From the NCBI GenBank assembly GCA_017557605.1, contig JAFYYJ010000122.1:1344-65343 (forward strand): DNA of 64,000 nucleotides. Direction: 5' to 3'. Source of the DNA: Salinivirgaceae bacterium. Lineage in GTDB: Bacteria > Bacteroidota > Bacteroidia > Bacteroidales > SZUA-534. Of the stretch, positions 25,179 through 44,848 are shown piece after piece (the first letter of the stretch is position 1; each line of letters opens with the position of its first letter). The position numbers and the translations under genes were made by a program. The notes beneath the pieces were generated by a model. The model ran no database searches. It was given only the letters and a program-made list of their open reading frames with translations, and was not told the DNA's origin.

Positions 25179-26606
25179 TTATTTCCTACTAACACCTTTA
25201 TAATCTTCACAATAGAAGATATCGTAGGCCGGAATTCCAGCCACTTTCACGCAATCTATCTTTTTGACGCTGGCGAAACAATCGCGGATAAAATAGAACT
25301 GCGTGTTGCTGTTCAGCCGCGGTTTGACCAATATTCCGTCACGCCCTTTCAGATTGTCAATGTCGAGACCGACATAACCGAAATGGTATGGTGTCTGGCC
25401 AATAATCTGCGGTCCGTAGATGGTGTCTTTTCTATTATAGAAGCTGATTTTAGACGCTGTTTTGTAGCCGTCGGTAGCATAAACAAAGGTGTTGGGATGG
25501 GCGGCGTGAATGGAATCCACCTCCTGCGCCAGCAACTCCGAATCCAAGCCTAAATCGTAACGGACAAAGGGCGACTGCGGCGCCAGCACAATAAAATAGA
25601 TGCTGACAAGATAGAGCGCCGAAGTTGAAATCCAATGCCACTTCTGCCAGCGCAACTTCAAGAAGCGCGCCATAAGCACAATGCCGCTTATATATGTCGG
25701 TATCAGCCAGTTATATTTAACCTCACCGAATATCGACACAAGGTAAACGCCTATATATGTTGGCATAAAGAAGCAGAACAGGAACCAAATCTCGGGATTG
25801 GTCTGATTGGGTTTTGTGAAAATCCTCCACAGATATTTGCCAAAAAGCCACCACAATCCTACAAACAAAACGGGCATCAATATAATTATCTGTGAGAGAA
25901 TGAATTGCAAGATATTTTGCGGAGTGTCGCTATCGAAAGGCTCAGCTCGCAGCACCGAGCTGATACGGAATGATACAAAATCGTTTTGCGCATTCCAGAT
26001 GAGCACTGGCAATGCCAACACCACCATTATCAATATCGACAGGTACGGCCACGGCTTGGCGAGCAGATTGCGGTAGCGCCCCGAAAAAAGCAGAAAAAGC
26101 AACAATCCGATTGGCAAGCCCATTGCCGGATACTTGCTATCGAAAGCCAAACCCATAAACAAACCGGCGTAGAGCCAGAATCGTTTTTCGCCGTCGAAGA
26201 TGGCGCGATAGAGTGCCCAGATGGAGAGCGTCCAAAAGAGCGTCAGAACCACATCGGGACAGTTCTGCAACGAGAGCGATGTTACAAGCATCGATGTGCA
26301 GAACATGGTCCAGGCCAAGTATTTGCGGTCGCTGCGCAACACCCGCGACGACAGGGCGAAGAAGGCCAGCTGTGCCATAAGCGTTATGAAAAACGATGCA
26401 AACTTGACAGCAAACATATTGTGTCCGAACATCTTCATAAATAACCAAATAGTGTAGCCAACCAACGGCGGATGGTCGTAATACGATAGTGAAAGATGGT
26501 CGGCATAGTAGGCAAAATACGATTCCTGCGGTGTCAACCCGATAAACGGCATAAACGCTAACCGCAAGATGTTCAATATGATAACTACTATAAGAGCCTT
26601 TTTCAT
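25179..26606 (-). CDS. GT-C fold membrane glycosyltransferase (GT39/ArnT-PMT_2 family)
   Basis: About 11-12 TMs; QESY..Y...LSLSYYDHPP, PD..L, GLAFDSKY, P.L.WN. Confidence 0.82.
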   Translation of the reverse strand: MKKALIVVIILNILRLAFMPFIGLTPQESYFAYYADHLSLSYYDHPPLVGYTIWLFMKMFGHNMFAVKFASFFITLMAQLAFFALSSRVLRSDRKYLAWTMFCTSMLVTSLSLQNCPDVVLTLFWTLSIWALYRAIFDGEKRFWLYAGLFMGLAFDSKYPAMGLPIGLLLFLLFSGRYRNLLAKPWPYLSILIMVVLALPVLIWNAQNDFVSFRISSVLRAEPFDSDTPQNILQFILSQIIILMPVLFVGLWWLFGKYLWRIFTKPNQTNPEIWFLFCFFMPTYIGVYLVSIFGEVKYNWLIPTYISGIVLMARFLKLRWQKWHWISTSALYLVSIYFIVLAPQSPFVRYDLGLDSELLAQEVDSIHAAHPNTFVYATDGYKTASKISFYNRKDTIYGPQIIGQTPYHFGYVGLDIDNLKGRDGILVKPRLNSNTQFYFIRDCFASVKKIDCVKVAGIPAYDIFYCEDYKGVSRK

Positions 26607-26670: not shown

Positions 26671-27048
26671 TTACGTTTTTGGTTTCGGCTGATTGTTGTC
26701 TGAGGAGGCCTCATCGTTTTCAGTCTGATATTTAGTAAGCCTCTCAATCACCTTGTTGTAAATCTGCTCATACTCTTTGATGTGCCGCCCGTAATATTTC
26801 ATTGTATTCATAAACTGAGCGGGTGTAACATCATATTTTTCAAGAATAAAACCATAAGCGTTCTCCGCATCATCGTGTTTTGGCCACTTGCCAAACCTCC
26901 CTTGGTAACTCAGATACGCATCGGTCATGTGAATATCGATAAGCATATCGACAAGTTTGTCCCTCTCTATCTCGGGCCGACTGCCTGGCTCACGCGAGCA
27001 GCACTGCATCAGCACAAGCAAAACGATTATCGGTATAAATCTTTTCAT
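26671..27048 (-). CDS. DUF4296-like lipoprotein
   Basis: Lipobox-like LMQCC; L.DIHM.DA, I.EKY.VT..QF..T..YY, IY..V..RL. Confidence 0.7.
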   Translation of the reverse strand: MKRFIPIIVLLVLMQCCSREPGSRPEIERDKLVDMLIDIHMTDAYLSYQGRFGKWPKHDDAENAYGFILEKYDVTPAQFMNTMKYYGRHIKEYEQIYNKVIERLTKYQTENDEASSDNNQPKPKT

Positions 27049-27051
27049 AAT

Positions 27052-27091
27052 AAAAAAGCAACTGCCCCGCGTTTTGATGCGAAGCAGTTGC
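27052..27091 (-). terminator. intrinsic terminator of the adhesin-sprF operon, overlapping the next promoter
   Basis: Minus strand GCAACTGCttcgc-atcaaaac-gcgggGCAGTTGC-TTTTTT; TATCTTTG at 27091-27098. Confidence 0.7.
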
Positions 27092-27114
27092 AAAGATAAA
27101 GCTATGTTCTTTGA

Positions 27115-28068
27115 TTATCTAATCTTTCGTTTCGATTTTGACTTACGGATGTCTTCAAATTTAACACCGAGCATAATCTCATGCGAGCCGTTGCTGGCGT
27201 TGCTCAACTTAGATATAGTAACATCGTAAGAATAACCAACGTTAATCATATCGTTGTAGTTGTAACCAACAAATACTATCACAGCCTCAGGATTCTTGAA
27301 GTTGTAGCGGAAGCCAAGGCCGCCCCAAACCATTTTCTGATAGATGACACGGCAGTTGATGTCGGTCATAAAATCGTAGTTTGGCACAGTTTTAATCAAG
27401 ATTGAAGGCTCAAGGTCGAAGTTACGGTCGATGTTGTACTTGTAGCCGCCCTGAATGTAGAAGTGCGGTTTAACGCGGCCGTCCTTTACAATATAACCCT
27501 CGTCATACTTGTCGAGCAACGACATGTTGTTGAAAAACAGGTGATGGAAAGCTATGCCGGCATAATACTGCGATGTGTAGAGATAGACACCGAGCGATGC
27601 ATCAGGGTAAATCTTCTTGTATACAGAGTTTGAAAAACCGTCTGCTCCCTCGTTCAATTCAACATTGACATCGGTAAGGTCGACTTTCTGTTGAACTATG
27701 CCAAGGAACAAACCCGCCGATATGCGGATATCGCCCGTGATGCGCAGATTGTAGCTATAAGAACCATAGGCGCCCATGTTGCCAACCGGACCGGTAACAT
27801 CGTTGAAGATGTAGCCGCCGTAGCCCATCGGCATCACCTTATGCGGGCCATAGCCACCAAGCATATAGGTCTGAGGTGCATTCTTTATACCTGCGAACTG
27901 ATAGCGATAGTTCGTTTTTATCTGCCAATAGTCGTTTGTTCCGCCAACGGCCGGGTTCAGCATATAATCGTTGAACATATACTGCGAGAATTGAGGCAGT
28001 AGTTGTGCGTTGGCACTTGGAGCAATCAGCATCGCTCCAGCAAACAATGTTAAAATAATCCTTTTCAT
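27115..28068 (-). CDS. T9SS membrane protein, PorP/SprF family
   Basis: PQFSQYMFN...NPA..G, YRYQF.GI..AP.T, GYSYD, GSHEIML; directly downstream of a type-B cargo gene. Confidence 0.92.
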   Translation of the reverse strand: MKRIILTLFAGAMLIAPSANAQLLPQFSQYMFNDYMLNPAVGGTNDYWQIKTNYRYQFAGIKNAPQTYMLGGYGPHKVMPMGYGGYIFNDVTGPVGNMGAYGSYSYNLRITGDIRISAGLFLGIVQQKVDLTDVNVELNEGADGFSNSVYKKIYPDASLGVYLYTSQYYAGIAFHHLFFNNMSLLDKYDEGYIVKDGRVKPHFYIQGGYKYNIDRNFDLEPSILIKTVPNYDFMTDINCRVIYQKMVWGGLGFRYNFKNPEAVIVFVGYNYNDMINVGYSYDVTISKLSNASNGSHEIMLGVKFEDIRKSKSKRKIR

Positions 28069-28075
28069 AGCTTTA

Positions 28076-31000
28076 TTACCTTACAATTGTAACAGGACCT
28101 GTTTTCTTCTTACCACCAAGCTTATCGCTGCTGCATTGGATTACATAGTAGTATGTACCCGACGGCAGCGGCTTGTTCTTAGCATTTCTACCATTCCACT
28201 GGTTAGCCACGTACTCGAGGCCGCTTCCTGAGAACTGCCATACACGTCCGCCCCAGCGGTTGAAGACGTAGATGTTGACATGCTCGTACGATGACAAACC
28301 GTCAATTCCCCATGTCTCGTTGTATGCATCACCATTAGGAGTGAACACATCAGCTGGTTTTATTCCGCTTACTGTTCTGACATCGACGCTCTCAGTGTAA
28401 CGGCAAGCAAAAGTGGTGTCTTCAAGGTAGAACATCACGCTGTCGCTGACTTTGAAGGTCAGATTCTCGGCAAACGGACGGACAACGGCCGGCATGGTGT
28501 CGTGCGATGACATCCAGAAGGCATTGTCGGTGTTGGTTGCCCATTGGAAGTTATTCTCGTACTCGTAAGAGTAGAGCATGTCGAATGTAAGAGTGTTGGC
28601 TACCAGATAGAGCTCTGCACCCTCGGCCACCTCGTAAACTCCGTTATTCTTCAGCGCCTCTGAGTCGAAGCCGTCCATTTCGATATGCGTCTTGAGCTTG
28701 TTATCGGGCTTCATTGCCACTGCGTGCAGCGAATCGATAGCCATGCAGACACCGTTGGTGGCTTTCACATAGTAGTAGGTGTCGCCGCCGTAAGGCAAGA
28801 ATGTGAACGGAAGGATAAAGTCTGGCTCACTGCCTACTGAATCAATACCCAGAACCACATTTCCGTCAGCGTCTATCACGTAGCGTGGCTTAGCCGGCTC
28901 CTCGGTAACTGGTACGGATTCTGTTGGGAGGCTGTCAATTATCACGCTGTCAACCTCTGTGCTGTCGCCGTTGGCGCGCAGGAAGTAATGACGCATTTTG
29001 CTGATAGCCAAAGCTGTATCGATACGAGTTGTGTCGGCACTTGTGGTGTCAGGCTCAACAACAGTTTCTTCCTCTTCTTCCTCCTCAACGTATGGCGTGT
29101 ACCACTTCATCGACTTGTATGCCGATGTTGTGTGTGCGTATGCCTTCAACTCGTTGTCCGGGCAAGTAAATATCTCGTCAGACTGAGTGTTGGCGAAGTA
29201 GATGTCGTCGATTGCAAAGCCGTTGCGGCTGCCGAGCTTGCGGCTTACAGTTGTCGAGCACGACAAGGTGTCGCCGTAGCCAATTGTTATAGTGTGACGG
29301 CCTGAAGCCAAACCACTAAACTGTCCGCTGCTCTGAACCTTACCGCCATCAATCCGATAACGAAGGTCTTTATTCTCAATGGTATCGACACCTGTTATAG
29401 TGCTTGATACTGAATAGAAGGCTGTTACGTTGAGTGAGCCATCGAGTGATAATTCACCGGCATCGGTATAAGTGTCGCAAAGTGGCAATGATAGGTCGAC
29501 TTTGAGAACCATTATCTCAGGATGTTCTGAGTAAACACGGAACGGAACGGAGTCGCTGACGCAAGACTTGACGTCGGTTACACGAACCTTGTAGTTACCT
29601 GTCGGCAACAGACTGCTGAAGCTAATCACTGATGTGTCAACACTTGGCGTCTGCTCGTAATACTCATCGCCAAAGAATTCGAAGCGGTTGAACAATCCCG
29701 CACCACCTTCCAAACCGGATATTTCAATAGTACCATCGCTCAAATTATAGCAAGAGTTTGGTATTGTGCTCGATACCGAGAACACTATTGGCATTGGTTG
29801 TCCAAGTTCGAAAGTATCGGTTTTAACGCAGAGTGAATCATCGGTTACAACTACCGAATAGGTTCCTGCTGCCAAACCACCAATTGATGCGGTTGTTTCG
29901 CCATTGCTCCACTGATAAGTGAAGTTTGTACTGCTCTTACTTGTAGCTTCGATTGACAATTTACCATCTTCGTAGCCAAAGCAGCGTGGTGCTGTAGAAT
30001 CGGTGCGTGTGATGGTGAATTCCGACAAGTCAGGAACAGTAATCACTGTATCGTATTGGCATCCAAGGTCGTCAACAACAAGCAGATTGTAATCATCGGT
30101 AGCCAAACCTGTGACTTTTACTGGTTTTGCTCCAGAATTCACAACAACTGAGTCTGTCCAATCGCTATGCGAGAAGTAATATTTGAATGGTACGTTACCA
30201 CCGAATTCTTCTGCCAAATTAGCAGGTTCCACAATTGTTATTGTACCTATAGCATTGTAGCAGAACGAACCTTCAGGAATAATATTTGCATTAGGAATAT
30301 GGAGTCTTGTCGACGGTTGTCCAACCTCAATAGTTGTAGTGTCGGATACACGGCCATTGCTTTGTGATATTACAACGGTGTATAAACCGGCTTTCAATCC
30401 ACTGATAGATGCTGTTGTAGCAACTGAGTCGGCGGGCCAATTCTCACTTGTCCACTCATATTTATAAGCCTCATAGTAGCCACCAACACCTGAAACTTCC
30501 AAAACACCATTGTCGCCACCGTAGCATGTGGTTGCCACCAATTGTATAGTGTCACATGAAAGCGGACGATGCTCAATTTGTATTGTTGTATCAACCGCGC
30601 AACCAAGCGGGTTTTCATCTTCAATATGCAAAGTATAGTAACCTTCACAAAGGCTGTACACAGTTGTTGTCGTTGCTGCATCCTGCGATTCTAACGAGTT
30701 GTTTGAAGCGTCAGACCATGAATAGGTGTATCCGCCAATTCCTCCGCCAATGGTTACTGTAAGCGAACCATCACAGTTCGGGTCGCCCGTCAAATCTGGA
30801 TAGTTAGCAATATTGGTAACGCGCAATGCCAGCGTATTGCCTATATCAACGCTACCTGCACGACGGCAACCATCATCGGCAACAACCACTACACGGTTAG
30901 AACCATAATGCAAGGTCTTTACTGTCTCGCCTTGAGCGACAGTGTCAGTGCCGTTCCAAATAATCATCGATTTTGTGAAGACGTTATTGATATTGCCATC

Positions 31001-34000
31001 TGCGTCAAGGCCGTAAACAGTGTTTATAGTAGCCTCACCAGTAGGATGCTGGATACAAGCCACATCTTTTGTAACTGGTTTCCCGAATTCGATGTTACCC
31101 TTATCGAGGACCTCAACTGTGTCATAAATGGCACATCCAAGCGAATCGACTATTTTGGCAACGTAGATGTCTGCCGCAATATCTTTTATTGAGTCAACCG
31201 TACCGATAATATCAGTAGTGTTTACAACAAACCAACTGAAAGAGTATGGTTGAACGCCACCTTCAAGATTCAGTTTTATCTTGCCTGTCGGTACTGCGCA
31301 CTCCGACTTGACTGTGTCTGCCGATAACACTGCTAACGGTTTCTCCGGTTGTTGAATGGTAATAGTGTCGTAAATCGGGCAATTGTTGTCATCGGTAATC
31401 ATGACAGCATACTTGCCTGCGCCAACATTACTCAATACCGAATCGGCAACTTCAGTGTTTTCAGTAAAATTGAACCAAGTGTAGTTGTAGCTCTTGTTGG
31501 CAGCGGTTCCACCCTTGGCTTCTGCATAGAAGCTAGCCACATTGTCACCGTAGCACTGGATTGCTTGAGCGAAGATGATGGTGTCTTTAATTTGCGATGG
31601 TTGACCAATTGTAATAGTATCGCTTGCCGGACAACCATTCTCATCAATCACATCGACATAATACCTGCCAGCCGGTATTCCTGTTAATATAGAATCTGTC
31701 AGCGTATTATCGCCATTCCACATGAAGCTGAAATCCGGGTCACCATTTCCAACAACCACTGCAACTGAAGTTGTTCCGTTATAGCAGTCTATCGAATCCG
31801 CTACGAACGACAACGTCATCGGGTCTGGTATGGTATTTATTGTGGTATCCTTAGAGCAACCTTTGGCATCGGTAATGGTGAAGGTAATGCTACCACCCAT
31901 CAGGTTTGTAACTTTTAACGCATCATTATCAATAACTGCTCCTGCATCGTTGCAAGTAATTGTATACTTAGAGGCAGGCACCTTGCCTTGAGTTCCCCCA
32001 CTAACTGTAAACTGAACCTCACCATCAGTTGTTCCGCAAGGAGTAAGTGTTACAACCGCGCTTATGCTGATTGAGTCAGGCTCTGGCATTACGAATATAG
32101 AATCAGAAGTACACCCATTTTCATCGGTTACTGTAACTTTGTAACTGCCAGCTGTTAGCTCACTAGCGAGAGCAACTGTAGACTTCTCATTTGATGTGAG
32201 AACATCTATCCATCGGTATGTTGGTTCGCCAACACCGTCAGATGAAGTTACTAAGATTGAACCATCGTTGCCTCCGTAGCACTTAACTGTATCTTGGCTG
32301 AGTTTTTCAATTTTAATCTTTTCAGGTTGACCAACCTCGACTGTGGTTGTCGCTTTACAACCATGGCTATCTGTTACACGAACATAGTATGTGCCAGCAT
32401 AGAGGTCGGTAGTGTCGTTATCTGAAACAAGGTCGTTAAAGTCCTCATCTTTAGCCCACTCAAATATATTGTATACGCCTGAACCACCTATGGCATTGGC
32501 CACCGCACGGGCATCGTTGCCACCATAGCAAGTTACATTCAGACCAATTGGTGAGATATATGACAATGTATGGTGGTCTGGAATTATTTCCACAGGATTC
32601 AATACTCTCGAATTAAAAGTGATGGTCTGCAAGTCACCATCGTAATTATAATCGGTGAACTTTATTACGGCTTGTTGCAGTTTGCCTCCTGTACTATATG
32701 GACCACCTACTCTAACCGCCCAACCGCCTTCAGCCGGATTCTTTCCGTAGATTCCACTCACATCACCTGTAATACCAAACGTACCACTCTGGGGTTGGTT
32801 CATAGTGAATTGAGCCAAATCAAGTTCAAGTGCCGGACTTGTAGTAAATATGAAATCGAATTCATCTCCAGCTGCAGGCCATAAGCCGGGAAGGTCCTCC
32901 ATTCCCTTATCACTTTTATGGTCATAAAGTTTCAGGGATGTTCCGTCTGGAGCTACCAAATAGTATCCCAAATCGTATGCCTCAACAATGCTGCCAACAA
33001 CTTGTACTTCTATCTTAGTTGAAGATGCTATCGGGAACGGAATGATACCGCCGACTGCAACAACAAATTCCGGCAAAATATTAATAGTCACTTTATCGGT
33101 TGTTTTGCCGCAAGATTCGCTATCAACTGTCAAAGTAAGAATTGCCTTATGTGCTGCCAAATCGGCATCGCTTGGTTTATAGGTTGTATGCAAATCATTG
33201 ATATCACCGAAAGTACCACCTGATTCCGACGACCATTCAATGGTTGTTCCGTTTTCAAAAGAAGCGTCAAGCAAGACATAGTCGCTGCCATAGCAAATAG
33301 TAGTATCTTTCCCTGCAAAAGCAGAAGGTCCTTGCGTGTTGGTTATCACAATTTTATAATCTTTTGAGCAACCATAAGTGTTGTCAGAAATGGTGCAAGT
33401 CAGGTTGTAAGTTCCGGCTGTAGTGCAAGCAAAGGTTGGTGTGGCACTTTTATCATCATCAAGATAATCAACTCCATCGCCGCTCCACGCGTAACTGAAA
33501 CTGCCGCTACCGCCCGATGCTGTAGCGTCCAATCCAACGCTTCCATTGGTGCACGAGGTTTCGGTTGATGACAATGCGCTTGTCGGCAAGTCATGAACAG
33601 TTAAGTCAAAGTCTGTTGCTACCGCTGCCGTACAACCATTTCCATTGGTATAGCTAACTGATACTTTGTGTGGACCTGCAGTTGTCCATGTGTAATCAAA
33701 AGTTTCAGTTCCGCTCTCTGGTGTTCCTCCGTCAACTGACCAATAATAATTGCTCATTCCGCTTTCGGTTGTGTAAGTACCGGTTTTGTCTTGGCATATC
33801 TCATCATCAGCCATGATTGTTGGAACTGGCAACGGATTGATTGTGATAGTTACTGACGAAGAAAGCGGGTCAACGCATGGTGCGTTTGGTGTAAGTGTAA
33901 GTGTTAGTGTTACGCTTCCTGCCGCTATTTCATCTGTGCCAAATGTGTAAGTTGGTTTCAAAGTAGATGCATTGTCAAACGTTCCGTTACCTGATGATGT

Positions 34001-37000
34001 CCAAAGTAACGATGTATAATGGTCGGCTGTTGCAGCTGATAATGGGTATGTTGCTTGGTCGGCGCAAACCGCATCGTTTATGGCTTCGAAAATTACAGGT
34101 TCGGCGACGAAGGTTATATCAGCTTCATCGTATGCTTGGCACGAACCAACCATTTCAGTCAACCGCAAAGTATAAGTACCTTCGGCATTCGCTTTGAATT
34201 GTGTTGCTGTAACAGACGCTCCAGGACTGGCTGTTGACCAAGCAAAATCAGATGTTGTGCCTGTTACGCTTTGTGTGGTTGTCGGCAATGTGTATTCCAA
34301 TCCGCAAACTGTTGCATTTTCAATATTTGGAACAGGCATCGGATTAACTGTCAATGTCATCTTTTTACCTCCTGATTCATCGCAGCCATATTTTGGTGTA
34401 GCCGAAATAGTTACTTGTTTCCATTCCGTTGAAAGTGCTGCGTGATAAGTTGCCGCGTTTGAGCCCAGAGTAGGCGTTCCACCATCTGACACAATCCACT
34501 GATAATTGGTGAAATTCTCATGAGTTATTACATTAACTGTATAATCATCGCCAGCACAAATTGTAGCCTCATACTCCTCAAATTCCATAACCGGCTTTGC
34601 CTTGAATGTGACATTAGCAGTGGCAGTGGCGCTACAATTGGCACCATTGATTTCCGTCATTGTTATGGCGTATGTTCCGTATGCGGCCCCCTCGTTAAGG
34701 GTTGCTGTTATTGTAGCTGTAGTTCCTGTCTCGCTTTGGCCTGTTAGCGTTACTCCTGCCGAAGCGTTCCACACAACTTTATTGCCGGCTGTAGTCATAT
34801 TGGCAGTTATTACATCAGTTGTGCCGCAAATCTCTATTGCACTTGCAATTGATGGTGTCGGATTTGCATAAACATGGAATGTATATGTTTTAGGAACTGC
34901 AGGGCAAATACCACCATTGCTTGCTGTAACAGTAAGTGTTACATCCTGGTCAGCTGCAGAAGGTACAAATTTGGCTGTCTTTGATGATGACGAACCTGAT
35001 TGGGTAAGTGTTCCTGCACCTGTTGCCGTCCAAACCAAATCGGTAGCATCAGTTGCCGTAGCCGCTACTTCAACATCGCCCGTCTCACAAATATCATCAG
35101 GTGACGGTACTGTTACTTCCGGCGCTTTGTGGAAAGTTACTGATTGTGGTGAACTTGTAGCCGAGCAACCTTCTGTTGTTGCTTCGGTAACAGTCACATT
35201 ATAATAAACTCCATTATCGCCGTCAATGGTAACATTCGCCCCTGTAGGCGGGTTAATTTTTAATGTGTTATCACCTCCATTATCCCATGTTAATGTTCCG
35301 CCAAGAGTAGCGTGAGCGGTTGCGGTTGTCGTTAATCCGCAAATATCACCCAAAGCATCAATTGTTGGAGCAGGAACATCGCCTACTGTCAATTCAAAAG
35401 TTGCTGTTTCCGGTGCTGTACAAACTGTAGGATGGTTGCTTGTAGCTGTAAGTGTGAGTGTTATTGTTTTACCATAGTCAGCCTCCCCCGGAGTATATAC
35501 CGTGTTAAGCGAGTTATCCGGGCTGAATGTGCCTGCACCACCGCTCCATTTTACATTAGTGCAGTTCGATGTTGCAGATAAAGAGATTGTTTTGTTTCCG
35601 CAGACAGTACCCGATGTGCCTGTAGTAATGGTTACTGTTGGTGCGTCGTAGAAAGTTACGGGGGTTGCCGCACTTTCTTTAGGGCAGCCATCTAACGTTT
35701 CCTCAACATATATATTATATGTGTTGGCTGAAGTAGCAGTTACGGTTGTTGTCTCTCCATTAGGCGAACCAAATGTCAAACCTCCACCTATTGGCTTCCA
35801 AGTAAGCGTGCTGCCTGAAAGCGAATGTGTAGCCGAAGCTAACGTTGTCAATCCGCAAACATCAGCAGCAATCGTTGGCGCTGACGGATTAGGCACTTTT
35901 TTTACTGTAAGAGTGTAATACGCATATACAACCGGGCACGCCTCACTTGTACCTGTCAATGTTAGAGTTATTGTCTTACCGGCATCAGATGCGGCTGGAG
36001 TGTAAGTAGTATTTACTGTTGTTTCGCTACTGAACGTACCTGCGGCATTGGAACTCTTTGCCCACTGCAGCGTGCAGTTCGTTGATGAACCTTTAATATC
36101 AACCGGAGTAGTTCCGCAAGTTGAGCCTGATGTTGATGTAAGACTTAATGTGGGTTCGTCGTAGAATGTAATAGTTACTGTACCTGTGCTAAATCCTGGA
36201 CACTTTGCAGCCGATTTTTCAGTTTCTTTTACACGGAATGTATAAGCACCCGCTTTAGTAACGGTAACATTCAAACCATCTATAGAAGATACTGAACCTC
36301 CAGAAGTGGTGCTAACAAAATCAACCTCCAAATCACCTCCCATTTTGGCTGTAGCGGCAATGCTTGTAGAAAGGCCACAAACCGAACGGTCAGAATCGTC
36401 CATTGTCGGCTCTGGAGTTGCTATAATATCGATAGTTTTTGTACAAGTATCTGGTGTACATGTTCCGTTTGTCACTATCATTGACAACGTCGCTTTCCCC
36501 ACACCGTCTAATGAAATTGTTGGTGATTTTGTATCGCCACCGCTTGTTATTGAAGCCGGACCTGAAACCAACCAATTTATGCTCTCGTCATTCTCTGCGG
36601 ATGCGTCATTTACTGTATATGAAAGCTTTTCTTTACATATAGTAACATCAGCACCAGCATTGGCAACAGGTGCGGGAATTGGTGTGATTTCCGTACTAAG
36701 GTCGTTAGGACTTTTCAGTTTTGTTGCATTTGTCGTGTTATCACAACCAGCTTCATCAGATATTAAAATATCATATTCTCCTGCTGGCAAACCGCTGATA
36801 TCAGGTGAATCGGTTGTTCCACTATGGGAACCTGGACCTGCATAACTGAAGGAAAGGGCTCCGGTACCTCCTGAAGCATTTATATGAATAATACCGGTTT
36901 CTTCTCCTACACAACTTGCTTCATTGTCGAATGTTGCGGTTATTCTTTCCGGACCGTCGGTGTAATTGTTCATATTGGCCGGACCTGTAGGCCTATATGC

Positions 37001-38230
37001 ATATTTTTCTGCTACATATACACAATGATTCTCATCTTCAATAGTTAAGAAATTTGTTCTACCCGCTATAGCTGTAAATGTTGCAGACGAGCCATATCCT
37101 CCTCCATTATTCTCCCAAGTAAAGGAGTATTCGCCTGTACCGCCAGTAATATTATGTGTCAATATTAAATCATCGCCCCAACAGGTTGCGCCGGTACCAA
37201 CAATAATACCGCCCGAAAATATTGGAGCATAACCTACTGTTACATTTTGAGGTTCCGAAATTGATGTGCCTACCTGATAACTTACCATATGGGTACCAGG
37301 CGCAACATTTGGAAAAGTCACATCTTTTCCTACCTTGCTTATCGATTTTATTGTACCATTTCCTTCATCGTTAAGAACTACCTCCGACAATAAAACTTTA
37401 AATTCTCCCTCTCCATCAATAATTACTCTAATAGAACCATCATTAAGAACAGTCTGTGCATTTTCCGGACAACTAACAGCTGTAGGTATTGGCGTCAAAG
37501 ATGCTTTCGATGCGCGATAAGTCCCAATAACACCATATTTTAAACCATCAATTGTAAAGAAATTGCCTTGAGGAGTGTCTCTGAACAATATTTTCGAATT
37601 TTCAGCTTCTAAGGTCAAGTTCGAAGCCGAACGCAAATTCCACTTGTCGCAAACAATAGTTGATTTTTTAATATTGAGCATTTCTGCTTTTTCGGTTGCC
37701 GAAAATTCAGCACACGCTATACTATGACCATTTGCATTTAGCGAGCCGGATTTTAATGTGATATTGCCATCAACATCCAACGGAATAGCCAAAGTCCAAC
37801 TGCCACCATCAATAATAACGTCTGTCGGAACAATCGGGAATATATTAATGGTATTGTTTCCTTCTCCCGACAACACCAACGCTCCGCGCAACTTGCCAAA
37901 GTCGGCATTAGCGTCAACGCTGATTGAGCCGCTGACAGTGAAGTCTTTCTTGCCAGACAATGCAAAGTTGGCGTCGATAGCCGTAAAGCTGCCCACTTGC
38001 ACTGCATCGCTGAACGACACCGTGTTGCGTGCGCCGCTGAACGAATTTTCATCGAACACTACACTTGTACCTGATTCCGGCACCGTTGCACCCGGCTCGC
38101 CGCCCGATGTGGTTGACCAGTGGCTCTCGTCAGTCCAACTGCCGCTGCCGCCTACCCAGAATCTCGACTCTTGACCGAATAGTTGCGCTGCAACTAATAA
38201 AATCGATACGGTTAAAATATGTCTCTTCAT
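28076..38230 (-). CDS. giant SprB-like surface adhesin (3384 aa) with Ig/PKD-like repeats, P-domain-like module, SprB repeats and T9SS type-B C-terminal domain
   Basis: Signal peptide; FWVGGSGSW.D..HWS..SGG N-domain; C..G.I...GG...Y.W...L.AG.Y.V.VTD..GC repeats; C-terminus VFTPNGD..NE.W...VFNRWG...WNG....LPSGTYYY...G.VTIVR. Confidence 0.92.
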   Translation of the reverse strand: MKRHILTVSILLVAAQLFGQESRFWVGGSGSWTDESHWSTTSGGEPGATVPESGTSVVFDENSFSGARNTVSFSDAVQVGSFTAIDANFALSGKKDFTVSGSISVDANADFGKLRGALVLSGEGNNTINIFPIVPTDVIIDGGSWTLAIPLDVDGNITLKSGSLNANGHSIACAEFSATEKAEMLNIKKSTIVCDKWNLRSASNLTLEAENSKILFRDTPQGNFFTIDGLKYGVIGTYRASKASLTPIPTAVSCPENAQTVLNDGSIRVIIDGEGEFKVLLSEVVLNDEGNGTIKSISKVGKDVTFPNVAPGTHMVSYQVGTSISEPQNVTVGYAPIFSGGIIVGTGATCWGDDLILTHNITGGTGEYSFTWENNGGGYGSSATFTAIAGRTNFLTIEDENHCVYVAEKYAYRPTGPANMNNYTDGPERITATFDNEASCVGEETGIIHINASGGTGALSFSYAGPGSHSGTTDSPDISGLPAGEYDILISDEAGCDNTTNATKLKSPNDLSTEITPIPAPVANAGADVTICKEKLSYTVNDASAENDESINWLVSGPASITSGGDTKSPTISLDGVGKATLSMIVTNGTCTPDTCTKTIDIIATPEPTMDDSDRSVCGLSTSIAATAKMGGDLEVDFVSTTSGGSVSSIDGLNVTVTKAGAYTFRVKETEKSAAKCPGFSTGTVTITFYDEPTLSLTSTSGSTCGTTPVDIKGSSTNCTLQWAKSSNAAGTFSSETTVNTTYTPAASDAGKTITLTLTGTSEACPVVYAYYTLTVKKVPNPSAPTIAADVCGLTTLASATHSLSGSTLTWKPIGGGLTFGSPNGETTTVTATSANTYNIYVEETLDGCPKESAATPVTFYDAPTVTITTGTSGTVCGNKTISLSATSNCTNVKWSGGAGTFSPDNSLNTVYTPGEADYGKTITLTLTATSNHPTVCTAPETATFELTVGDVPAPTIDALGDICGLTTTATAHATLGGTLTWDNGGDNTLKINPPTGANVTIDGDNGVYYNVTVTEATTEGCSATSSPQSVTFHKAPEVTVPSPDDICETGDVEVAATATDATDLVWTATGAGTLTQSGSSSSKTAKFVPSAADQDVTLTVTASNGGICPAVPKTYTFHVYANPTPSIASAIEICGTTDVITANMTTAGNKVVWNASAGVTLTGQSETGTTATITATLNEGAAYGTYAITMTEINGANCSATATANVTFKAKPVMEFEEYEATICAGDDYTVNVITHENFTNYQWIVSDGGTPTLGSNAATYHAALSTEWKQVTISATPKYGCDESGGKKMTLTVNPMPVPNIENATVCGLEYTLPTTTQSVTGTTSDFAWSTASPGASVTATQFKANAEGTYTLRLTEMVGSCQAYDEADITFVAEPVIFEAINDAVCADQATYPLSAATADHYTSLLWTSSGNGTFDNASTLKPTYTFGTDEIAAGSVTLTLTLTPNAPCVDPLSSSVTITINPLPVPTIMADDEICQDKTGTYTTESGMSNYYWSVDGGTPESGTETFDYTWTTAGPHKVSVSYTNGNGCTAAVATDFDLTVHDLPTSALSSTETSCTNGSVGLDATASGGSGSFSYAWSGDGVDYLDDDKSATPTFACTTAGTYNLTCTISDNTYGCSKDYKIVITNTQGPSAFAGKDTTICYGSDYVLLDASFENGTTIEWSSESGGTFGDINDLHTTYKPSDADLAAHKAILTLTVDSESCGKTTDKVTINILPEFVVAVGGIIPFPIASSTKIEVQVVGSIVEAYDLGYYLVAPDGTSLKLYDHKSDKGMEDLPGLWPAAGDEFDFIFTTSPALELDLAQFTMNQPQSGTFGITGDVSGIYGKNPAEGGWAVRVGGPYSTGGKLQQAVIKFTDYNYDGDLQTITFNSRVLNPVEIIPDHHTLSYISPIGLNVTCYGGNDARAVANAIGGSGVYNIFEWAKDEDFNDLVSDNDTTDLYAGTYYVRVTDSHGCKATTTVEVGQPEKIKIEKLSQDTVKCYGGNDGSILVTSSDGVGEPTYRWIDVLTSNEKSTVALASELTAGSYKVTVTDENGCTSDSIFVMPEPDSISISAVVTLTPCGTTDGEVQFTVSGGTQGKVPASKYTITCNDAGAVIDNDALKVTNLMGGSITFTITDAKGCSKDTTINTIPDPMTLSFVADSIDCYNGTTSVAVVVGNGDPDFSFMWNGDNTLTDSILTGIPAGRYYVDVIDENGCPASDTITIGQPSQIKDTIIFAQAIQCYGDNVASFYAEAKGGTAANKSYNYTWFNFTENTEVADSVLSNVGAGKYAVMITDDNNCPIYDTITIQQPEKPLAVLSADTVKSECAVPTGKIKLNLEGGVQPYSFSWFVVNTTDIIGTVDSIKDIAADIYVAKIVDSLGCAIYDTVEVLDKGNIEFGKPVTKDVACIQHPTGEATINTVYGLDADGNINNVFTKSMIIWNGTDTVAQGETVKTLHYGSNRVVVVADDGCRRAGSVDIGNTLALRVTNIANYPDLTGDPNCDGSLTVTIGGGIGGYTYSWSDASNNSLESQDAATTTTVYSLCEGYYTLHIEDENPLGCAVDTTIQIEHRPLSCDTIQLVATTCYGGDNGVLEVSGVGGYYEAYKYEWTSENWPADSVATTASISGLKAGLYTVVISQSNGRVSDTTTIEVGQPSTRLHIPNANIIPEGSFCYNAIGTITIVEPANLAEEFGGNVPFKYYFSHSDWTDSVVVNSGAKPVKVTGLATDDYNLLVVDDLGCQYDTVITVPDLSEFTITRTDSTAPRCFGYEDGKLSIEATSKSSTNFTYQWSNGETTASIGGLAAGTYSVVVTDDSLCVKTDTFELGQPMPIVFSVSSTIPNSCYNLSDGTIEISGLEGGAGLFNRFEFFGDEYYEQTPSVDTSVISFSSLLPTGNYKVRVTDVKSCVSDSVPFRVYSEHPEIMVLKVDLSLPLCDTYTDAGELSLDGSLNVTAFYSVSSTITGVDTIENKDLRYRIDGGKVQSSGQFSGLASGRHTITIGYGDTLSCSTTVSRKLGSRNGFAIDDIYFANTQSDEIFTCPDNELKAYAHTTSAYKSMKWYTPYVEEEEEEETVVEPDTTSADTTRIDTALAISKMRHYFLRANGDSTEVDSVIIDSLPTESVPVTEEPAKPRYVIDADGNVVLGIDSVGSEPDFILPFTFLPYGGDTYYYVKATNGVCMAIDSLHAVAMKPDNKLKTHIEMDGFDSEALKNNGVYEVAEGAELYLVANTLTFDMLYSYEYENNFQWATNTDNAFWMSSHDTMPAVVRPFAENLTFKVSDSVMFYLEDTTFACRYTESVDVRTVSGIKPADVFTPNGDAYNETWGIDGLSSYEHVNIYVFNRWGGRVWQFSGSGLEYVANQWNGRNAKNKPLPSGTYYYVIQCSSDKLGGKKKTGPVTIVR

Positions 38231-38507
38231 AACCTATATTATTGAAGTGTTTCTATTCATCTTTCTTGTCGCGCCCGCTTTTGGGTACTTCAAGCGCATA
38301 AAAGTAAATTTTATTTAAATCAGCGTTTTTTAGCTTTGATAATTCGACAATAAAACGTGATTAAATACGATTATACATTGCCAAACCTACTTGGCAGTTG
38401 ATAAATAACGGTCCTTCGCACAATAAACATCGGATAAAAACGTAGGGAGGTAGATACCGCAATATCAAAACTCATTATTTTTATATTTGCTAACAAAACA
38501 TAACAAT

Positions 38508-43909: not shown

Positions 43910-44848
43910 TTACTTCTGTTTCCCCTCCCGATACGAAGCCACGTGCCGTTCCGATTTTTCCTTGTAGATGTCAGCAATGGTTACCATTATTCCTGTTTCC
44001 TCAACATCGCCAAAATAGGGATTTAAGCTCGTACCGAACACTTTAAGCGTCGATGAAAGGCTCATATAGGAGTTGATAAGCGGCGGTATGCGCTCGCCAC
44101 GGGCACGCACCTCGCGCGACAATGTGCGATAATCTTCCTTGTAGTCGTTGCCCTTGAAGGCCGCATGCAACTGTTCAAGATTGAAATGCAAGTCGAGAGG
44201 GTTGAGAAGATGCATAAGACTCTCGTTTCCACCAAAATACATATTCATAAAATAGAGCAGGAAGTTGCGCGCCTCCTGATTGTAATGGCGGTACATTGTT
44301 ACTTTTCCAAAGAAATATCGGGCTTTAGGATAATCGACAATCAAAGTGCCGAGTCCGTCCCAAAGGTTGTCTAGGGTATAAAGGCTGCGACGACCGTCAC
44401 CAATAGCCTGATTCTCAGGAACAACAAATGAGCGTCCAAGCTCTATTATATATGGCAGGTAATTCTTTTTAAACTCGTCGGAATAATAGAACAGCTGCGA
44501 TGTGGCCAGAACCGGATTGCCTTCAGCATCAGTTGGGGCATCATTTCCTGTAATAAACCGATATCCGCCCAGAATCTCCTGCTTGCGTGGGTCCCAAACA
44601 ATGAGCTGACTGTAAGGCTTTTCTGCTGTGTCGTATTCGTCAATGTCGCAAGCCAAACCTGTGCCGCCACCGGCGTTGCGGAATGTGAACTCACGCAGAC
44701 GACCTACTTCACGAAGCAGATTTGGCGAGTCGAAATGCTTGAAGATGTATATCTCGTTGTCGCCGAAATTTGTTTTGCGGACAAACTTATCGGGAGTCAG
44801 CTCGCTCAATATCAACTTCTTATCTATCGGTTCGATAATATTTTCCAT
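43910..44848 (-). CDS. glsB: GNAT N-acyltransferase, GlsB/ChoA-like (glycine lipid synthesis)
   Basis: EVGRLRE.TFR.AGGG.G...DID.YD, I.GGYR, IELGRSFV, LDNLWDGLG, IPPL.NSY. Confidence 0.75.
   Translation of the reverse strand: MENIIEPIDKKLILSELTPDKFVRKTNFGDNEIYIFKHFDSPNLLREVGRLREFTFRNAGGGTGLACDIDEYDTAEKPYSQLIVWDPRKQEILGGYRFITGNDAPTDAEGNPVLATSQLFYYSDEFKKNYLPYIIELGRSFVVPENQAIGDGRRSLYTLDNLWDGLGTLIVDYPKARYFFGKVTMYRHYNQEARNFLLYFMNMYFGGNESLMHLLNPLDLHFNLEQLHAAFKGNDYKEDYRTLSREVRARGERIPPLINSYMSLSSTLKVFGTSLNPYFGDVEETGIMVTIADIYKEKSERHVASYREGKQK

What the first reader, a model, noticed from the sequence alone, without database searches (positions are those of the whole stretch)
28076..32420. Giant adhesin split into a sequon-free half and a sequon-saturated half
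Seen (by-eye count): from about residue 1938 (DNDTT, nt ~32415) to the C-terminus there are about 38 D-[ST]-[AILVMT] motifs (DTV, DSI, DTT, DTI, DSV, DSL...). The first ~1935 residues are very rich in D, S and T, yet contain only 7 D-[ST] pairs, and only one (KDTT) is canonical; the others are DTP, DSP, DTK, DTC, DSD and DSE. The switch falls right after the P-domain-like module, where the long run of SprB repeats begins. Known: D-[ST]-[AILVMT] is the general Bacteroidota O-glycosylation sequon, and type-B T9SS cargo engages its SprF partner through the C-terminus. Inference: glycosylation is selected for in the cell-proximal stalk (stiffening or protease shielding) and selected against in the distal part, giving a positionally programmed glyco-pattern along one filament.
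Basis: partly seen in the sequence, partly recalled or inferred. Interest (0 to 1): 0.85.

Follow-up and report, generated by a model that had tools for sequence, protein, structure and literature searches.

The report
Adhesin with a sugar-site gradient
A giant bacterial surface filament carries almost no sugar-attachment motifs in its outer half and is packed with them in the half next to the cell, a pattern that evolution has kept in related bacteria and that fits a sugar-coated stalk carrying a bare binding tip.

Summary
The 3384-aa ORF (28076-38230, minus strand) has 1 D-[ST]-[AILVMT] sequon in residues 1-1938 and 38 in residues 1939-3384. Shuffles expect 12.4 and 8.6. A best-split scan statistic beats 1000 of 1000 shuffles.

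The protein is a T9SS type-B-CTD, SprB-repeat adhesin. Its operon also encodes a PorP/SprF anchor and a DUF4296 protein.

The repeat consensus does not explain the pattern:
- Five SprB-like units in the N half carry no sequon, while all 11 in the C half carry at least one.
- Other Bacteroidota SprB-repeat giants range from 0 to about 2 sequons per unit.

The pattern is inherited:
- 21 orthologue-set proteins total 18 N-part sequons against 241 expected, and 555 C-part sequons against 182 expected.
- 19 syntenic orthologues show a gradient from 0.12 to about 4.5 times expectation.

Two qualifications apply. The boundary is not fixed, because a second allele class, found even in near-identical genomes, has about 20 sequons in residues 1000-1900. 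Glycosylation itself is also unproven here.

The idea has a published precedent. The Aureispira grappling-hook protein GhpA has a glycan-studded Ig-like stem, a distal N-terminal head and a C-terminal anchor. Veith et al. proposed selection against sequons in surface cargo.

Verdict: a real, selected feature. It is a new variant of a known kind and of moderate interest.

The parts
28076..38230 (-). Giant ORF of 3384 aa, a T9SS type-B-CTD, SprB-repeat filamentous surface adhesin (P0001)
   Evidence: ORF listing and translation. Pfam hits PF13573 SprB repeat (6.8e-25) and PF13585 CHU_C (4.9e-19). NCBIfam hit TIGR04131. Full-length orthologues of 38-89% identity are named by NCBI as Salinivirgaceae MAG proteins.
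38174..38230 (-). Sec signal peptide, about residues 1-19 (MKRHILTVSILLVAAQLFG|QE)
   Evidence: Read directly from the translation. A crude signal-peptide rule flags the protein. No dedicated predictor was run.
37511..38173 (-). N-terminal head, about residues 20-240: a right-handed parallel beta-helix followed by an Ig-like domain. No sequon.
   Evidence: AF2 model of residues 20-345 built from 15 orthologue rows: pLDDT 86.2, pTM 0.74. VIA-align wide search gives Z 10-12 to many beta-helix proteins, including the polysaccharide-lyase-like 4phb, AlgG, phage tailspikes and the adhesins SRRP, PfbA and EtpA. Foldseek alone was weak.
32417..38230 (-). Sequon-poor N part, residues 1-1938: 1 canonical sequon, 7 D[ST] pairs
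   Evidence: It contains 5 SprB-like Ig units with 0 sequons, plus weak Ig_7, PKD_6 and IG_AIR9 matches.
32546..33028 (-). P-domain-like module, about residues 1735-1895 (assignment tentative)
   Evidence: No Pfam family at E <= 1. No meaningful PDB sequence match. ESM-Atlas features: all 30 hits are PF01483 clusters, best score 0.92.
28079..32416 (-). Sequon-rich C part, residues 1939-3384: 38 canonical sequons
29510..32563 (-). Contiguous run of SprB-type Ig-like units of about 82 aa, residues about 1890-2907. Eleven score confidently and one or two more weakly. They carry 24 sequons at three recurrent positions per unit.
   Evidence: Own HMM built from the protein. Unit alignment. AF2 model of residues 1972-2300: pLDDT 86.1, four beta-sandwich units. 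Foldseek top hits are GhpA stem fragments, E 2e-10.
28826..29083 (-). Acidic, proline-rich linker, residues about 3050-3135, with 7 sequons (3061, 3066, 3071, 3089, 3094, 3099, 3130). It lies about 250-330 residues from the C-terminus.
   Evidence: The six sites 3061-3099 are kept as sequons in 14-23 of the 20-28 orthologue-set rows that have residues there, with S/T and third-residue swaps.
28085..28354 (-). Type-B C-terminal sorting domain, residues 3293-3382
   Evidence: PF13585 at residues 3293-3378. TIGR04131 at residues 3294-3382, 55.4 bits against a cut-off of 35.
27115..28068 (-). PorP/SprF-family outer-membrane protein (P0002). It starts 8 nt after the giant ORF ends and is the presumed anchor.
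   Evidence: PF11751 4.2e-64. TIGR03519 7.5e-69. A match at E <= 1e-40 in 28 of 40 related genomes, including 23 of 24 in the family. Adjacent to the giant gene in 20 of 20 fetched loci.
26671..27093 (-). DUF4296 protein of 140 aa, the third conserved gene of the operon
   Evidence: PF14129 2.2e-19. A homologue follows PorP in 18 of 20 fetched loci.

Best explanation
The ORF encodes a filamentous T9SS surface adhesin. From N- to C-terminus it has:
- a signal peptide;
- an N-terminal beta-helix head;
- about 1700 residues of Ig-like domains;
- a P-domain-like module;
- a run of about 12 SprB-type Ig-like units;
- an acidic linker;
- a type-B C-terminal domain, which should hold the protein on its cognate PorP/SprF barrel.

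Proposed mechanism, steps inferred:
1. The protein crosses the periplasm before T9SS export.
2. There, the general Bacteroidota O-glycosylation system should modify every accessible D-[ST]-[AILVMT].
3. Sequon density is therefore a genetic proxy for the glycan coat.

Selection has packed sequons into the C-terminal, membrane-proximal third to half. They sit at three fixed places per Ig-like unit: the last strand, the inter-domain linker and one loop. There is also a cluster in the linker ahead of the anchoring module. In this allele lineage, selection has purged sequons from the N-terminal, distal 1600-1900 residues.

The likely result is a glycan-sheathed stem carrying a bare distal part. The stem would be rigid, soluble or protease-resistant, like the glycan-studded Ig-like stem of GhpA. 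The distal part's protein surface would be left free for binding, or kept free of glycan epitopes.

What is shown: the sequon statistics, their conservation and turnover, the domain architecture and the operon. What is inferred: actual glycosylation, orientation on the cell, and the selective benefit.
For: 1. Non-randomness. There are 1 versus 38 sequons against 12.4 and 8.6 expected. The scan statistic is reached by 0 of 1000 shuffles. The protein is the most extreme in its own proteome in both directions.

2. Motif-level selection in the C part.
- 38 of 44 D[ST] pairs are followed by a permissive residue, against a background of 0.39 (binomial P 1.4e-10).
- E and N analogues are not enriched.
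- Individual columns stay sequons while S/T and the third residue change. Residue 2128 is a sequon in 27 of 28 rows, with 7 different triplets. Residue 2893 is one in 23 of 28, residue 3166 in 28 of 28 with 4 triplets, and residue 3066 in 21 of 25 with 5 triplets.

3. Not a repeat-consensus effect.
- Within the protein, 0 of 5 N-half SprB-like units carry a sequon, against 11 of 11 C-half units (Fisher P 2.3e-4).
- Across 2009 units in 94 proteins the same hot positions recur. Occupancy ranges from none (P0040 0 sequons in 37 units, P0052 0 in 37, P0066 0 in 29, P0037 1 in 67) to about 2 per unit (P0045 74 in 42, P0074 38 in 20).

4. Purging in the N part.
- The 21 class I proteins total 18 sequons against 241.4 expected, a ratio of 0.07. 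None has a sequon before aligned query residue 1465.
- These alleles form several deep lineages in the N-half tree, with 43-58% identity to the query.
- At columns where class II has DTA or DTV, class I often keeps the D and the hydrophobic residue but has E, D, K, V or R in the acceptor position (DEA, DDA, DKV, DVA).

5. Gradient in species-level syntenic orthologues. Observed/expected rises from 0.12 (first 250 aa, 16 proteins) to 4.0-4.6 (last 1000 aa, 19 proteins).

6. Context.
- The type-B CTD, PorP/SprF and DUF4296 operon is conserved. SprA and GldJ are present in the genome.
- Sequons are enriched in signal-peptide-like proteins of this genome (1.59 against 1.15).

7. Literature, passages read.
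- SprB binds SprF through its C-terminal 368 aa, and type-B cargo are proposed to be anchored by PorP-like proteins (PMC9143113).
- T. forsythia T9SS cargo carry 120 mapped O-glycosylation sites in 18 proteins (PMC8550257).
- TfsA and TfsB are glycosylated in the periplasm even in T9SS mutants (PMC10202324).
- The GhpA stem's Ig-like domains all show putative O-glycan densities. The N-terminus is the distal hook, and the C-terminus has the T9SS CTD with PorP and PorE homologues downstream (bioRxiv 10.1101/2024.01.29.577165).
- GhpA fragments are the top Foldseek hits of my model of four C-half units.
Against: - There is no direct evidence of glycosylation of this protein or in this organism. 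No glycosylation gene was tested. The Bacteroidota O-oligosaccharyltransferase is not characterised, according to the review passages read (PMC12871550).
- The boundary is not fixed. Class II alleles carry 16-22 N-part sequons (120 against 58.4 expected in 6 proteins). They occur in the genomes closest to this one. A bare distal half is therefore not a requirement of the protein family.
- P0030 and P0031 are near neutral in the N part (11 against 16.4 expected).
- Distant SprB-repeat giants show only a weak average polarity by decile (0.82 to 1.48), and some are reversed (P0070, P0080, P0096).
- Orthologues are related, so the counts are not independent events.
- The third-position test is inflated, because site (a) lies inside a beta-strand where hydrophobic residues are common anyway.
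- Orientation on the cell is taken by analogy with SprB and GhpA.
- Solvent exposure of the acceptor residues was not measured. Only secondary structure was available.
Confidence: 0.6

Rival explanations
1. Historical mosaic without positional function. Giant SprB-type adhesins exist in whole-protein 'sequon-free' and 'sequon-rich' regimes. This gene is a recombinant whose N-terminal and C-terminal segments descend from donors under different regimes. The contrast would then record ancestry, or protein-level selection in the donors, rather than a stalk/tip programme.
For: - Sliding identity shows pervasive cassette exchange. P0008 is 97% identical to the query in residues 1-100, 24-51% in residues 200-2200, and 82-99% from about residue 2300 on. 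P0005 diverges only in 2300-2900. P0004 diverges only in 1200-1400.
- The N-half and C-half trees are incongruent.
- Genomes with 97-100% identical flanking genes carry a giant gene only 47-57% identical.
- Whole-protein sequon content among distant homologues is bimodal, from 0 against 29.3 expected up to 103 against 24.2.
Against: - Recombination breakpoints do not coincide with the sequon boundary. The divergent cassette of P0008 spans about residues 200-2200, while the sequon switch in the query is at about 1640-1940.
- The N-poor, C-rich gradient recurs in all 19 syntenic orthologues despite shuffling.
- The sequon-free state of the N part persists through 43-58% identity divergence in several lineages. 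That needs continuing selection on that segment in its present position.
Confidence: 0.2
2. A structural motif unrelated to glycans. D-[ST]-hydrophobic would be favoured at strand starts and linkers of this sub-type of Ig-like unit for folding reasons, such as an Asp/Ser/Thr capping motif. The C-half units would simply be a sub-family that has it.
For: - Sequons sit at the same three register positions in unit after unit.
- The same hot positions recur in distant proteins.
- Site (a) lies inside the last beta-strand in 4 of 4 modelled units, where a hydrophobic third residue is expected anyway.
Against: - Homologous units in the same protein and in other taxa lack D[ST] at these positions. Examples at site (a) in sequon-free proteins include CTFSKAFTI, CTYTESLTI and CTATADVTI. 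The motif is therefore not needed for the fold.
- Seven sequons lie in a non-repeat acidic linker and are conserved as motifs with residue swaps.
- E and N analogues are not enriched.
- The N-part depletion to 7% of expectation has no structural rationale, since class II alleles of the same architecture tolerate about 20 sequons.
Confidence: 0.08
3. Chance, or a by-product of amino-acid composition.
For: The split point was chosen by eye after looking at the data.
Against: - Global and local shuffles reject it.
- The scan statistic over all splits is reached by 0 of 1000 shuffles, and the Bonferroni-style P is 1.4e-10.
- The pattern is replicated in orthologues.
Confidence: 0.01

Closest known systems
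GhpA, the grappling-hook protein of Aureispira sp. CCB-QB1 (PDB 9fls, 9flp, 9flu and others; bioRxiv 10.1101/2024.01.29.577165, passages read)
   Same: - Both are giant Sec- and T9SS-exported surface filaments of Bacteroidota.
- Both have an N-terminal distal adhesin module and a long stem of tandem Ig-like domains.
- Both have a C-terminal T9SS sorting domain and a PorP homologue encoded downstream.
- In GhpA, putative branched O-glycan densities are seen on Ser/Thr in all stem Ig-like domains.
- GhpA stem fragments are the best Foldseek matches of my four-unit model (E 2e-10 to 9e-9, 16-21% identity).
   Different: - No sequence-level match was found: 0 PDB hits at E <= 0.001 with residues 1939-2900. 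The profile search found only phage Hoc-like Ig domains.
- The head here is a beta-helix, not the antigen I/II-like hook described for GhpA.
- There is no PorE homologue next to PorP here. The next gene is DUF4296.
- This protein has 3384 aa, against 5898 for GhpA.
- Heptamer formation is unknown here.
- About half of the Ig-like part here is sequon-free.
- I could not obtain the GhpA sequence, so its sequon distribution was not compared.
SprB gliding adhesin with SprF of Flavobacterium johnsoniae (PMC9143113, passages read)
   Same: - Both have SprB repeats (PF13573), a type-B CTD (TIGR04131) and a cognate PorP/SprF-family gene immediately downstream.
- Neither has an adjacent PorE-like gene. 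Gorasia et al. postulate that this arrangement marks mobile adhesins.
- GldJ and SprA are present in this genome.
   Different: - Only repeat-level similarity was seen to Flavobacterium-type proteins. P0086, from a Flavobacterium sp., is 23% identical over 28% of the query.
- That Flavobacterium protein is almost sequon-free, with 3 sequons against 24.2 expected.
- Gliding function is untested here.
- The F. johnsoniae O-glycoproteome paper (Veith et al. 2023, PMC10294664) is not held. I could not check whether SprB itself is glycosylated.
Selection for or against the O-glycosylation motif in T9SS cargo (Veith et al. 2022, PMC8729774, and Veith et al. 2021, PMC8550257; passages read)
   Same: - The same sequon is involved.
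- The same argument is used: absence of a low-specificity motif implies negative selection on surface-exposed cargo (the gingipains have none).
- Heavy glycosylation of other cargo is documented: T. forsythia has 120 sites in 18 cargo proteins.
   Different: Those papers contrast whole proteins and species. Here both regimes sit in one polypeptide, with homologous Ig-like units on either side. The boundary also differs between alleles of closely related genomes.

Membership tests
T9SS type-B cargo (SprB-like adhesin) | C-terminal type-B sorting domain (TIGR04131 / PF13585) | tested here: met
   TIGR04131 scores 55.4 bits against a cut-off of 35, at residues 3294-3382. PF13585 scores 68.7 bits against a cut-off of 27.
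T9SS type-B cargo (SprB-like adhesin) | Cognate PorP/SprF-family gene adjacent | tested here: met
   P0002 matches TIGR03519 at 232 bits (cut-off 90.55) and PF11751. It starts 8 nt downstream of the giant ORF. It is adjacent in 20 of 20 related loci.
T9SS type-B cargo (SprB-like adhesin) | SprB repeats (PF13573) | tested here: met
   86.9 bits against a cut-off of 28, in 4 stretches. My own HMM finds 16 confident units.
T9SS type-B cargo (SprB-like adhesin) | N-terminal Sec signal peptide | tested here: met
   Read from the sequence and flagged by a crude hydrophobicity rule. No dedicated predictor was run.
T9SS type-B cargo (SprB-like adhesin) | T9SS translocon and gliding components in the genome | tested here: met
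   SprA (TIGR04189) scores 2443 bits. GldJ (TIGR03524) scores 451 bits, or 461.8 with its neighbours in the frame, which is over the cut-off. Other gld and por genes were not searched.
T9SS type-B cargo (SprB-like adhesin) | Moves on the cell surface and drives gliding | not testable with these tools
   This needs live-cell imaging or a mutant.
Bacteroidota general O-glycoprotein | D-(S/T)-(A/I/L/V/M/T) motif in a region exposed to the periplasm | tested here: met
   There are 39 motifs and the protein has a signal peptide. The motif definition comes from passages in PMC8550257 and PMC12871550.
Bacteroidota general O-glycoprotein | The organism runs the general O-glycosylation system | tested here: inconclusive
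   Only indirect evidence is available. Sequon observed/expected is 1.59 in 803 signal-peptide-like ORFs and 1.15 in 1652 others. Relatives are named Salinivirgaceae, order Bacteroidales. No glycosylation gene was tested.
Bacteroidota general O-glycoprotein | Glycan found on the Ser/Thr | not testable with these tools
   This needs glycoproteomics.
GhpA-type grappling hook | Stem of tandem Ig-like domains similar in fold | tested here: met
   Foldseek E 2e-10 to 9e-9 to seven GhpA fragments. TM-scores are low (0.31-0.36) for the four-domain model.
GhpA-type grappling hook | N-terminal antigen I/II-like hook module | tested here: inconclusive
   The N-terminal model matches right-handed beta-helix proteins (Z 10-12). 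No antigen I/II entry appears among the 50 rows shown, which does not exclude one.
GhpA-type grappling hook | PorP and PorE homologues encoded downstream | tested here: not met
   PorP is present. The next gene is DUF4296, followed by a PMT_2 glycosyltransferase. No PorE-like gene lies in the adjacent positions examined.
Proprotein-convertase P-domain (PF01483), residues about 1735-1895 | Match to the Pfam model | tested here: inconclusive
   No Pfam family at E <= 1. In ESM-Atlas features, all 30 hits are PF01483 clusters, with best score 0.92 and 178 of 256 features shared.

The most novel reading that the evidence does not exclude
The glycan coat of this adhesin may be a heritable, tunable trait. 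Sequons are laid down as a proximal-to-distal gradient. At a recombination-hot locus, cassette exchange swaps N-terminal and middle segments that differ about 20-fold in sequon content, even between otherwise near-identical genomes.

Populations would thereby hold 'bare-tip' and 'coated' versions of the same filament. This would be a form of glyco-type variation that could tune adhesion, or help evade phages, predators or lectins that read either the protein surface or the glycan.
Probability: 0.25. Interest if true: 0.7.

Novelty: new variant of a known kind. Interest (0 to 1): 0.5.

Why it matters
The function of the phylum-wide O-glycosylation system of Bacteroidota is still described as unclear in the review passages I read (PMC12871550). 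This protein offers a natural experiment. Homologous Ig-like units with and without sequons sit in one chain, and natural alleles differ mainly in sequon load.

If the sequons are used, the locus would allow a direct test of whether glycans serve as stiffeners or protease shields of T9SS filaments, and of why some surface regions must stay bare.

It also shows that sequon observed/expected profiles along a protein can serve as a cheap genomic read-out. In uncultured Bacteroidota they could indicate topology (proximal stalk versus distal head) and selection on surface glycans.

The wider survey is itself a usable lead. SprB-repeat giants range from 0 sequons against 29 expected to 103 against 24.

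Tried and rejected
- A dedicated glycosyltransferase partner. A PMT_2 (GT-C) gene at 25179-26606 (-) and a GDP-mannose pyrophosphorylase gene at 38487-39599 (+) flank the operon. Both are adjacent in only 2 of 20 related loci, those of the two closest genomes. I do not link them to the adhesin.
- Paralogues in the same genome. BLASTP of the giant against 2455 crude ORFs found only weak partial matches, the best being 25% identity over 595 aa. The class II form is therefore not a second copy in this assembly, which is 95% complete.
- PDB sequence searches. Residues 1939-2900 gave no hit at E <= 0.001. The four-unit profile hit only phage Hoc and decoration Ig domains. Residues 1720-1900 gave only chance-level hits.
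- Foldseek on the N-terminal model was weak, with best TM-score 0.23. The VIA-align wide search was needed to identify the fold.
- N-glycosylation-type motif. N-x-[ST] counts (30 and 12) look near composition by a hand estimate. I did not pursue this.
- My 90%-identity de-replication removed nothing. Counts 'of 28' are therefore over all other orthologue-set rows, which are related to one another.
- Papers. The F. johnsoniae O-glycoproteome paper (PMC10294664) is not held. What I remember of its abstract is recall only and is not used as evidence. Supplementary tables of the glycoproteome papers and Figure S9 of the GhpA preprint were not seen. They may list sites that bear on SprB-like proteins.
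- Print search. Searches found no paper describing an intramolecular sequon polarity in a T9SS adhesin. These searches cover only the held library.

Full report
WHAT IS THERE

Window 28076-38230 (minus strand) is one 3384-aa ORF. Its features are:
- SprB repeats (PF13573, 6.8e-25).
- A type-B T9SS sorting domain at residues 3293-3382 (PF13585, 4.9e-19; TIGR04131, 55.4 bits against a cut-off of 35).
- A typical signal peptide at the N-terminus, read directly.

Eight nucleotides downstream lies a PorP/SprF-family gene (27115-28068; TIGR03519, 232 bits). A 140-aa DUF4296 gene follows at 26671-27093.

The trio of giant gene, PorP and DUF4296 is conserved. PorP matches at E <= 1e-40 in 28 of 40 related genomes searched, including 23 of 24 in the same family. 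In 20 fetched loci the giant gene is adjacent in 20 and the DUF4296 gene in 18.

NCBI names the closest database proteins as coming from Salinivirgaceae MAGs, order Bacteroidales. The genome (3.1 Mb, 124 contigs, 95% complete) also encodes SprA and GldJ.

THE OBSERVATION

- Canonical sequons D-[ST]-[AILVMT]: 1 in residues 1-1938 (DTT at 1642) and 38 in residues 1939-3384.

Shuffles of each half expect 12.45 +/- 3.27 and 8.61 +/- 2.79 sequons. A fraction of 5e-5 of 20000 shuffles reach 1 or fewer in the N part, and none reach 38 in the C part. Shuffling within 40-aa blocks gives the same result. E[ST][AILVMT] and N[ST][AILVMT] are flat between the halves, at 6 and 5 and at 7 and 7.

The split was chosen by eye, so I ran a best-split scan statistic. 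The observed log-likelihood ratio is 27.8, against a maximum of 9.1 in 1000 local shuffles. The conditional binomial P is 4e-14, or 1.4e-10 after allowing for 3384 possible splits.

Among 2455 crude ORFs of the same genome, this protein has both the most extreme sequon-free run and the densest 1446-aa window.

ANATOMY OF THE SEQUON-RICH PART

Residues about 1890-2907 are a run of SprB-type units of about 82 aa each. Twenty-four of the 38 sequons fall in these units, at three register positions:
- Site (a): three or four residues after the conserved 'GC'.
- Site (b): in the linker before the next unit's 'C.G'.
- Site (c): in the loop before the 'G.Y.V.V.D' strand.

I built an AF2 model of residues 1972-2300 from ten orthologue rows. 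Its pLDDT is 86.1 and it shows four beta-sandwich units. By its DSSP string:
- Site (a) lies in the last strand of the unit in 4 of 4 units.
- Site (b) lies at or just after the inter-domain linker.
- Site (c) lies in a loop.

Solvent exposure could not be computed, because only secondary structure was returned.

Seven more sequons cluster in an acidic, proline-rich linker at residues 3061-3130. This is about 250-330 residues from the C-terminus and roughly where the C-terminal anchoring module would begin, by analogy with the 368-aa SprB fragment that binds SprF (PMC9143113).

IS IT JUST THE REPEAT CONSENSUS?

No, for two reasons.

1. My unit HMM also finds five confident SprB-like units in the N part (349-405, 439-500, 810-853, 1321-1368, 1559-1627). 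None carries a sequon, whereas all 11 confident C-part units do (Fisher P 2.3e-4). For example, 'GCSKDYKIVI' in the N part stands against 'GCSKDTTINTI' in the C part.

2. I extracted 2009 units from 94 proteins.
   - The same hot positions recur across the family.
   - Occupancy is protein-specific. Low end: P0037 has 1 sequon in 67 units, P0040 0 in 37, P0052 0 in 37 and P0066 0 in 29. High end: P0045 has 74 in 42 and P0074 has 38 in 20.
   - At site (a), the sequon-free proteins have strings such as CTFSKAFTI or CTATADVTI, so the fold does not need D-[ST].

I had no SprB-repeat proteins from clearly non-glycosylating taxa.

CONSERVATION

One database search returned 96 proteins. Twenty-eight of them, P0004-P0031, are orthologue-like. 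Of the 29 aligned proteins including the query:

| Group | N part, observed / expected | C part, observed / expected |
|---|---|---|
| Class I, 21 proteins | 18 / 241.4 | 555 / 181.8 |
| Class II, 6 proteins (P0008-P0012, P0014) | 120 / 58.4 | 230 / 51.0 |
| P0030 and P0031 | 11 / 16.4 | 94 / 21.2 |

None of the class I proteins has a sequon before aligned query residue 1465.

In an N-half tree, the sequon-free alleles form several deep lineages, at 43-58% identity to the query. Class II is one clade on a long branch. The parsimonious reading is that the bare state is old and has been maintained. A rough expectation for neutral drift at this divergence is about 10 sequons per protein (my inference, not a simulation).

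At columns where class II has conserved DTA, DTV or DSV, class I often keeps the D and the hydrophobic residue but has E, D, K, V or R in the acceptor position. This points to the acceptor residue as the target of selection.

In the C part, individual columns stay sequons while S/T and the third residue vary:
- Residue 2128: 27 of 28 rows, with 7 different triplets.
- Residue 2893: 23 of 28 rows.
- Residue 3066: 21 of 25 rows, with 5 triplets.
- Residue 3166: 28 of 28 rows, with 4 triplets.
- Residue 3263: 28 of 28 rows.

Species-level syntenic orthologues from 18 other genomes show the same thing as a gradient. Observed/expected is 0.12 in the first 250 aa (16 proteins with complete N-termini). 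It is 0.5-0.8 up to residue 1250 and then rises, reaching 4.0-4.6 in the last 1000 aa (19 proteins). All these proteins are related, so the numbers are not independent trials.

The switch is not fixed at the P-domain-like module.
- In class II the rise starts near residue 1000.
- In G020, G023 and G024 it starts near residue 1200.
- The two genomes whose flanking genes are 97-100% identical to this one, G009 and G015, carry class II giants only 47-57% identical overall.

Sliding identity shows cassette-like mosaics:
- P0008: 97% in residues 1-100, 24-51% in residues 200-2200, and 82-99% from about residue 2300 on.
- P0005: divergent only in residues 2300-2900.
- P0004: divergent only in residues 1200-1400.

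The N-half and C-half trees disagree. The locus is therefore a recombination hot spot, and 'bare' and 'coated' middle regions are alternative alleles.

Among 67 more distant SprB-repeat or related giants, whole-protein observed/expected is bimodal, from 0 against 29.3 to 103 against 24.2. The average polarity by decile is weak (0.82 to 1.48), and a few proteins are reversed.

Two other giant proteins of this genome, on contig C100, also carry their sequons only near the C-terminus. Others do not.

THE DISTAL END

An AF2 model of residues 20-345 has pLDDT 86.2 and pTM 0.74. It shows a right-handed beta-helix at about residues 20-240, followed by an Ig-like domain.

VIA-align gives Z 10-12 to many beta-helix proteins. 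These include polysaccharide lyases and epimerases, phage tailspikes, and adhesins such as SRRP, PfbA and EtpA. This fits a carbohydrate-binding or adhesive head, but a shared fold does not show function.

The first about 100 residues stay 97% identical even where the next 2000 diverge.

HOW IT MOST LIKELY WORKS

Published work (passages read) supplies four points:
- T9SS cargo are O-glycosylated in the periplasm independently of secretion (PMC10202324).
- T. forsythia cargo carry 120 mapped sites (PMC8550257).
- In P. gingivalis, abundant surface cargo lack the motif altogether, which the authors read as negative selection (PMC8729774).
- Type-B cargo are held by PorP-like proteins through their C-terminal region (PMC9143113).

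The best structural match to my four-unit model is the stem of GhpA. Its cryo-EM maps show putative branched O-glycans on all stem Ig-like domains. It has the N-terminus as the distal hook and the C-terminal CTD at the membrane (bioRxiv 10.1101/2024.01.29.577165).

Putting these together, the most likely reading is a glycan-sheathed proximal stem and linker carrying a distal region that this allele lineage keeps free of glycans. The sequon statistics and their evolution are shown. Glycosylation, orientation and the benefit (rigidity, protease shielding, solubility, masking) are inferred.

NOVELTY AND VERDICT

The protein is a new member of the SprB/GhpA kind of T9SS filament. Two ideas are already in print: that stems of such filaments are glycosylated, and that sequons can be selected against in surface cargo.

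I did not find three things in the held literature:
- Both regimes inside one polypeptide, with homologous units on either side.
- The family-wide gradient.
- Alleles that move the boundary.

I rate it a new variant of a known kind with interest 0.5. Confidence that the pattern is real and selected is about 0.9. Confidence in the full stalk/tip glycan explanation is about 0.6.

LIMITS

- Supplements were not available.
- The F. johnsoniae glycoproteome paper was not held.
- ORF calling for the genome-wide background was crude.
- The signal-peptide classifier was a simple rule.

Noticed in passing
window 28076-38230 (-), compared with P0004-P0014 and loci L033 and L034: The adhesin gene is a recombination mosaic. 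Blocks of 200-2000 residues at 24-51% identity are flanked by blocks at 82-100% identity. Two genomes with 97-100% identical flanking genes carry a giant gene only 47-57% identical.
   Followed up: partly
window 25179-26606 (-) and 38487-39599 (+): A PMT_2-family GT-C glycosyltransferase (PF13231, 3.7e-33, with weak ArnT similarity) lies downstream of the adhesin operon. A mannose-1-phosphate guanylyltransferase (TIGR01479, 2.3e-91) lies upstream. The adjacency is seen in only 2 of 20 related loci, so it is probably coincidental.
   Followed up: yes
window 26671-27093 (-): A DUF4296 protein is the third conserved gene after the giant adhesin and PorP/SprF, present in 18 of 20 related loci. It sits where GhpA and some F. 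johnsoniae loci have a PorE-like gene.
   Followed up: partly
proteins P0032-P0098 (distant homologues): Giant SprB-repeat proteins across Bacteroidota are bimodal in sequon content. Some have 0 sequons against 17-29 expected (P0040, P0052, P0066, P0073). Others have 96-103 against 24-30 expected (P0045, P0074). Some are mosaics in either polarity: P0057 and P0092 are rich at the C-terminal end, while P0080, P0096 and P0070 are rich at the N-terminal end.
   Followed up: partly
G000 contig C100, 23004-31304 (+) and 3046-10620 (-): Two other giant proteins of the same genome carry nearly all their sequons in the last 600-800 residues. One has a sequon-free run of 1842 aa against 10.1 expected. 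Their C-terminal endings look like a T9SS sorting domain by eye only; I ran no family search on them.
   Followed up: no
window 37511-38173 (-), residues 20-240: The N-terminal head is predicted to be a right-handed beta-helix (Z 10-12 to lyases, tailspikes and adhesins). Its first about 100 residues remain 97% identical across alleles whose next 2000 residues are only 24-51% identical.
   Followed up: partly
window 43910-44848 (-) and 18394-19659 (+): A glycine-lipid synthase GlsB (NF053696, 3.6e-138) and a serine palmitoyltransferase/Kbl-like PLP enzyme lie in the window. These are lipid-synthesis genes unrelated to the finding.
   Followed up: no
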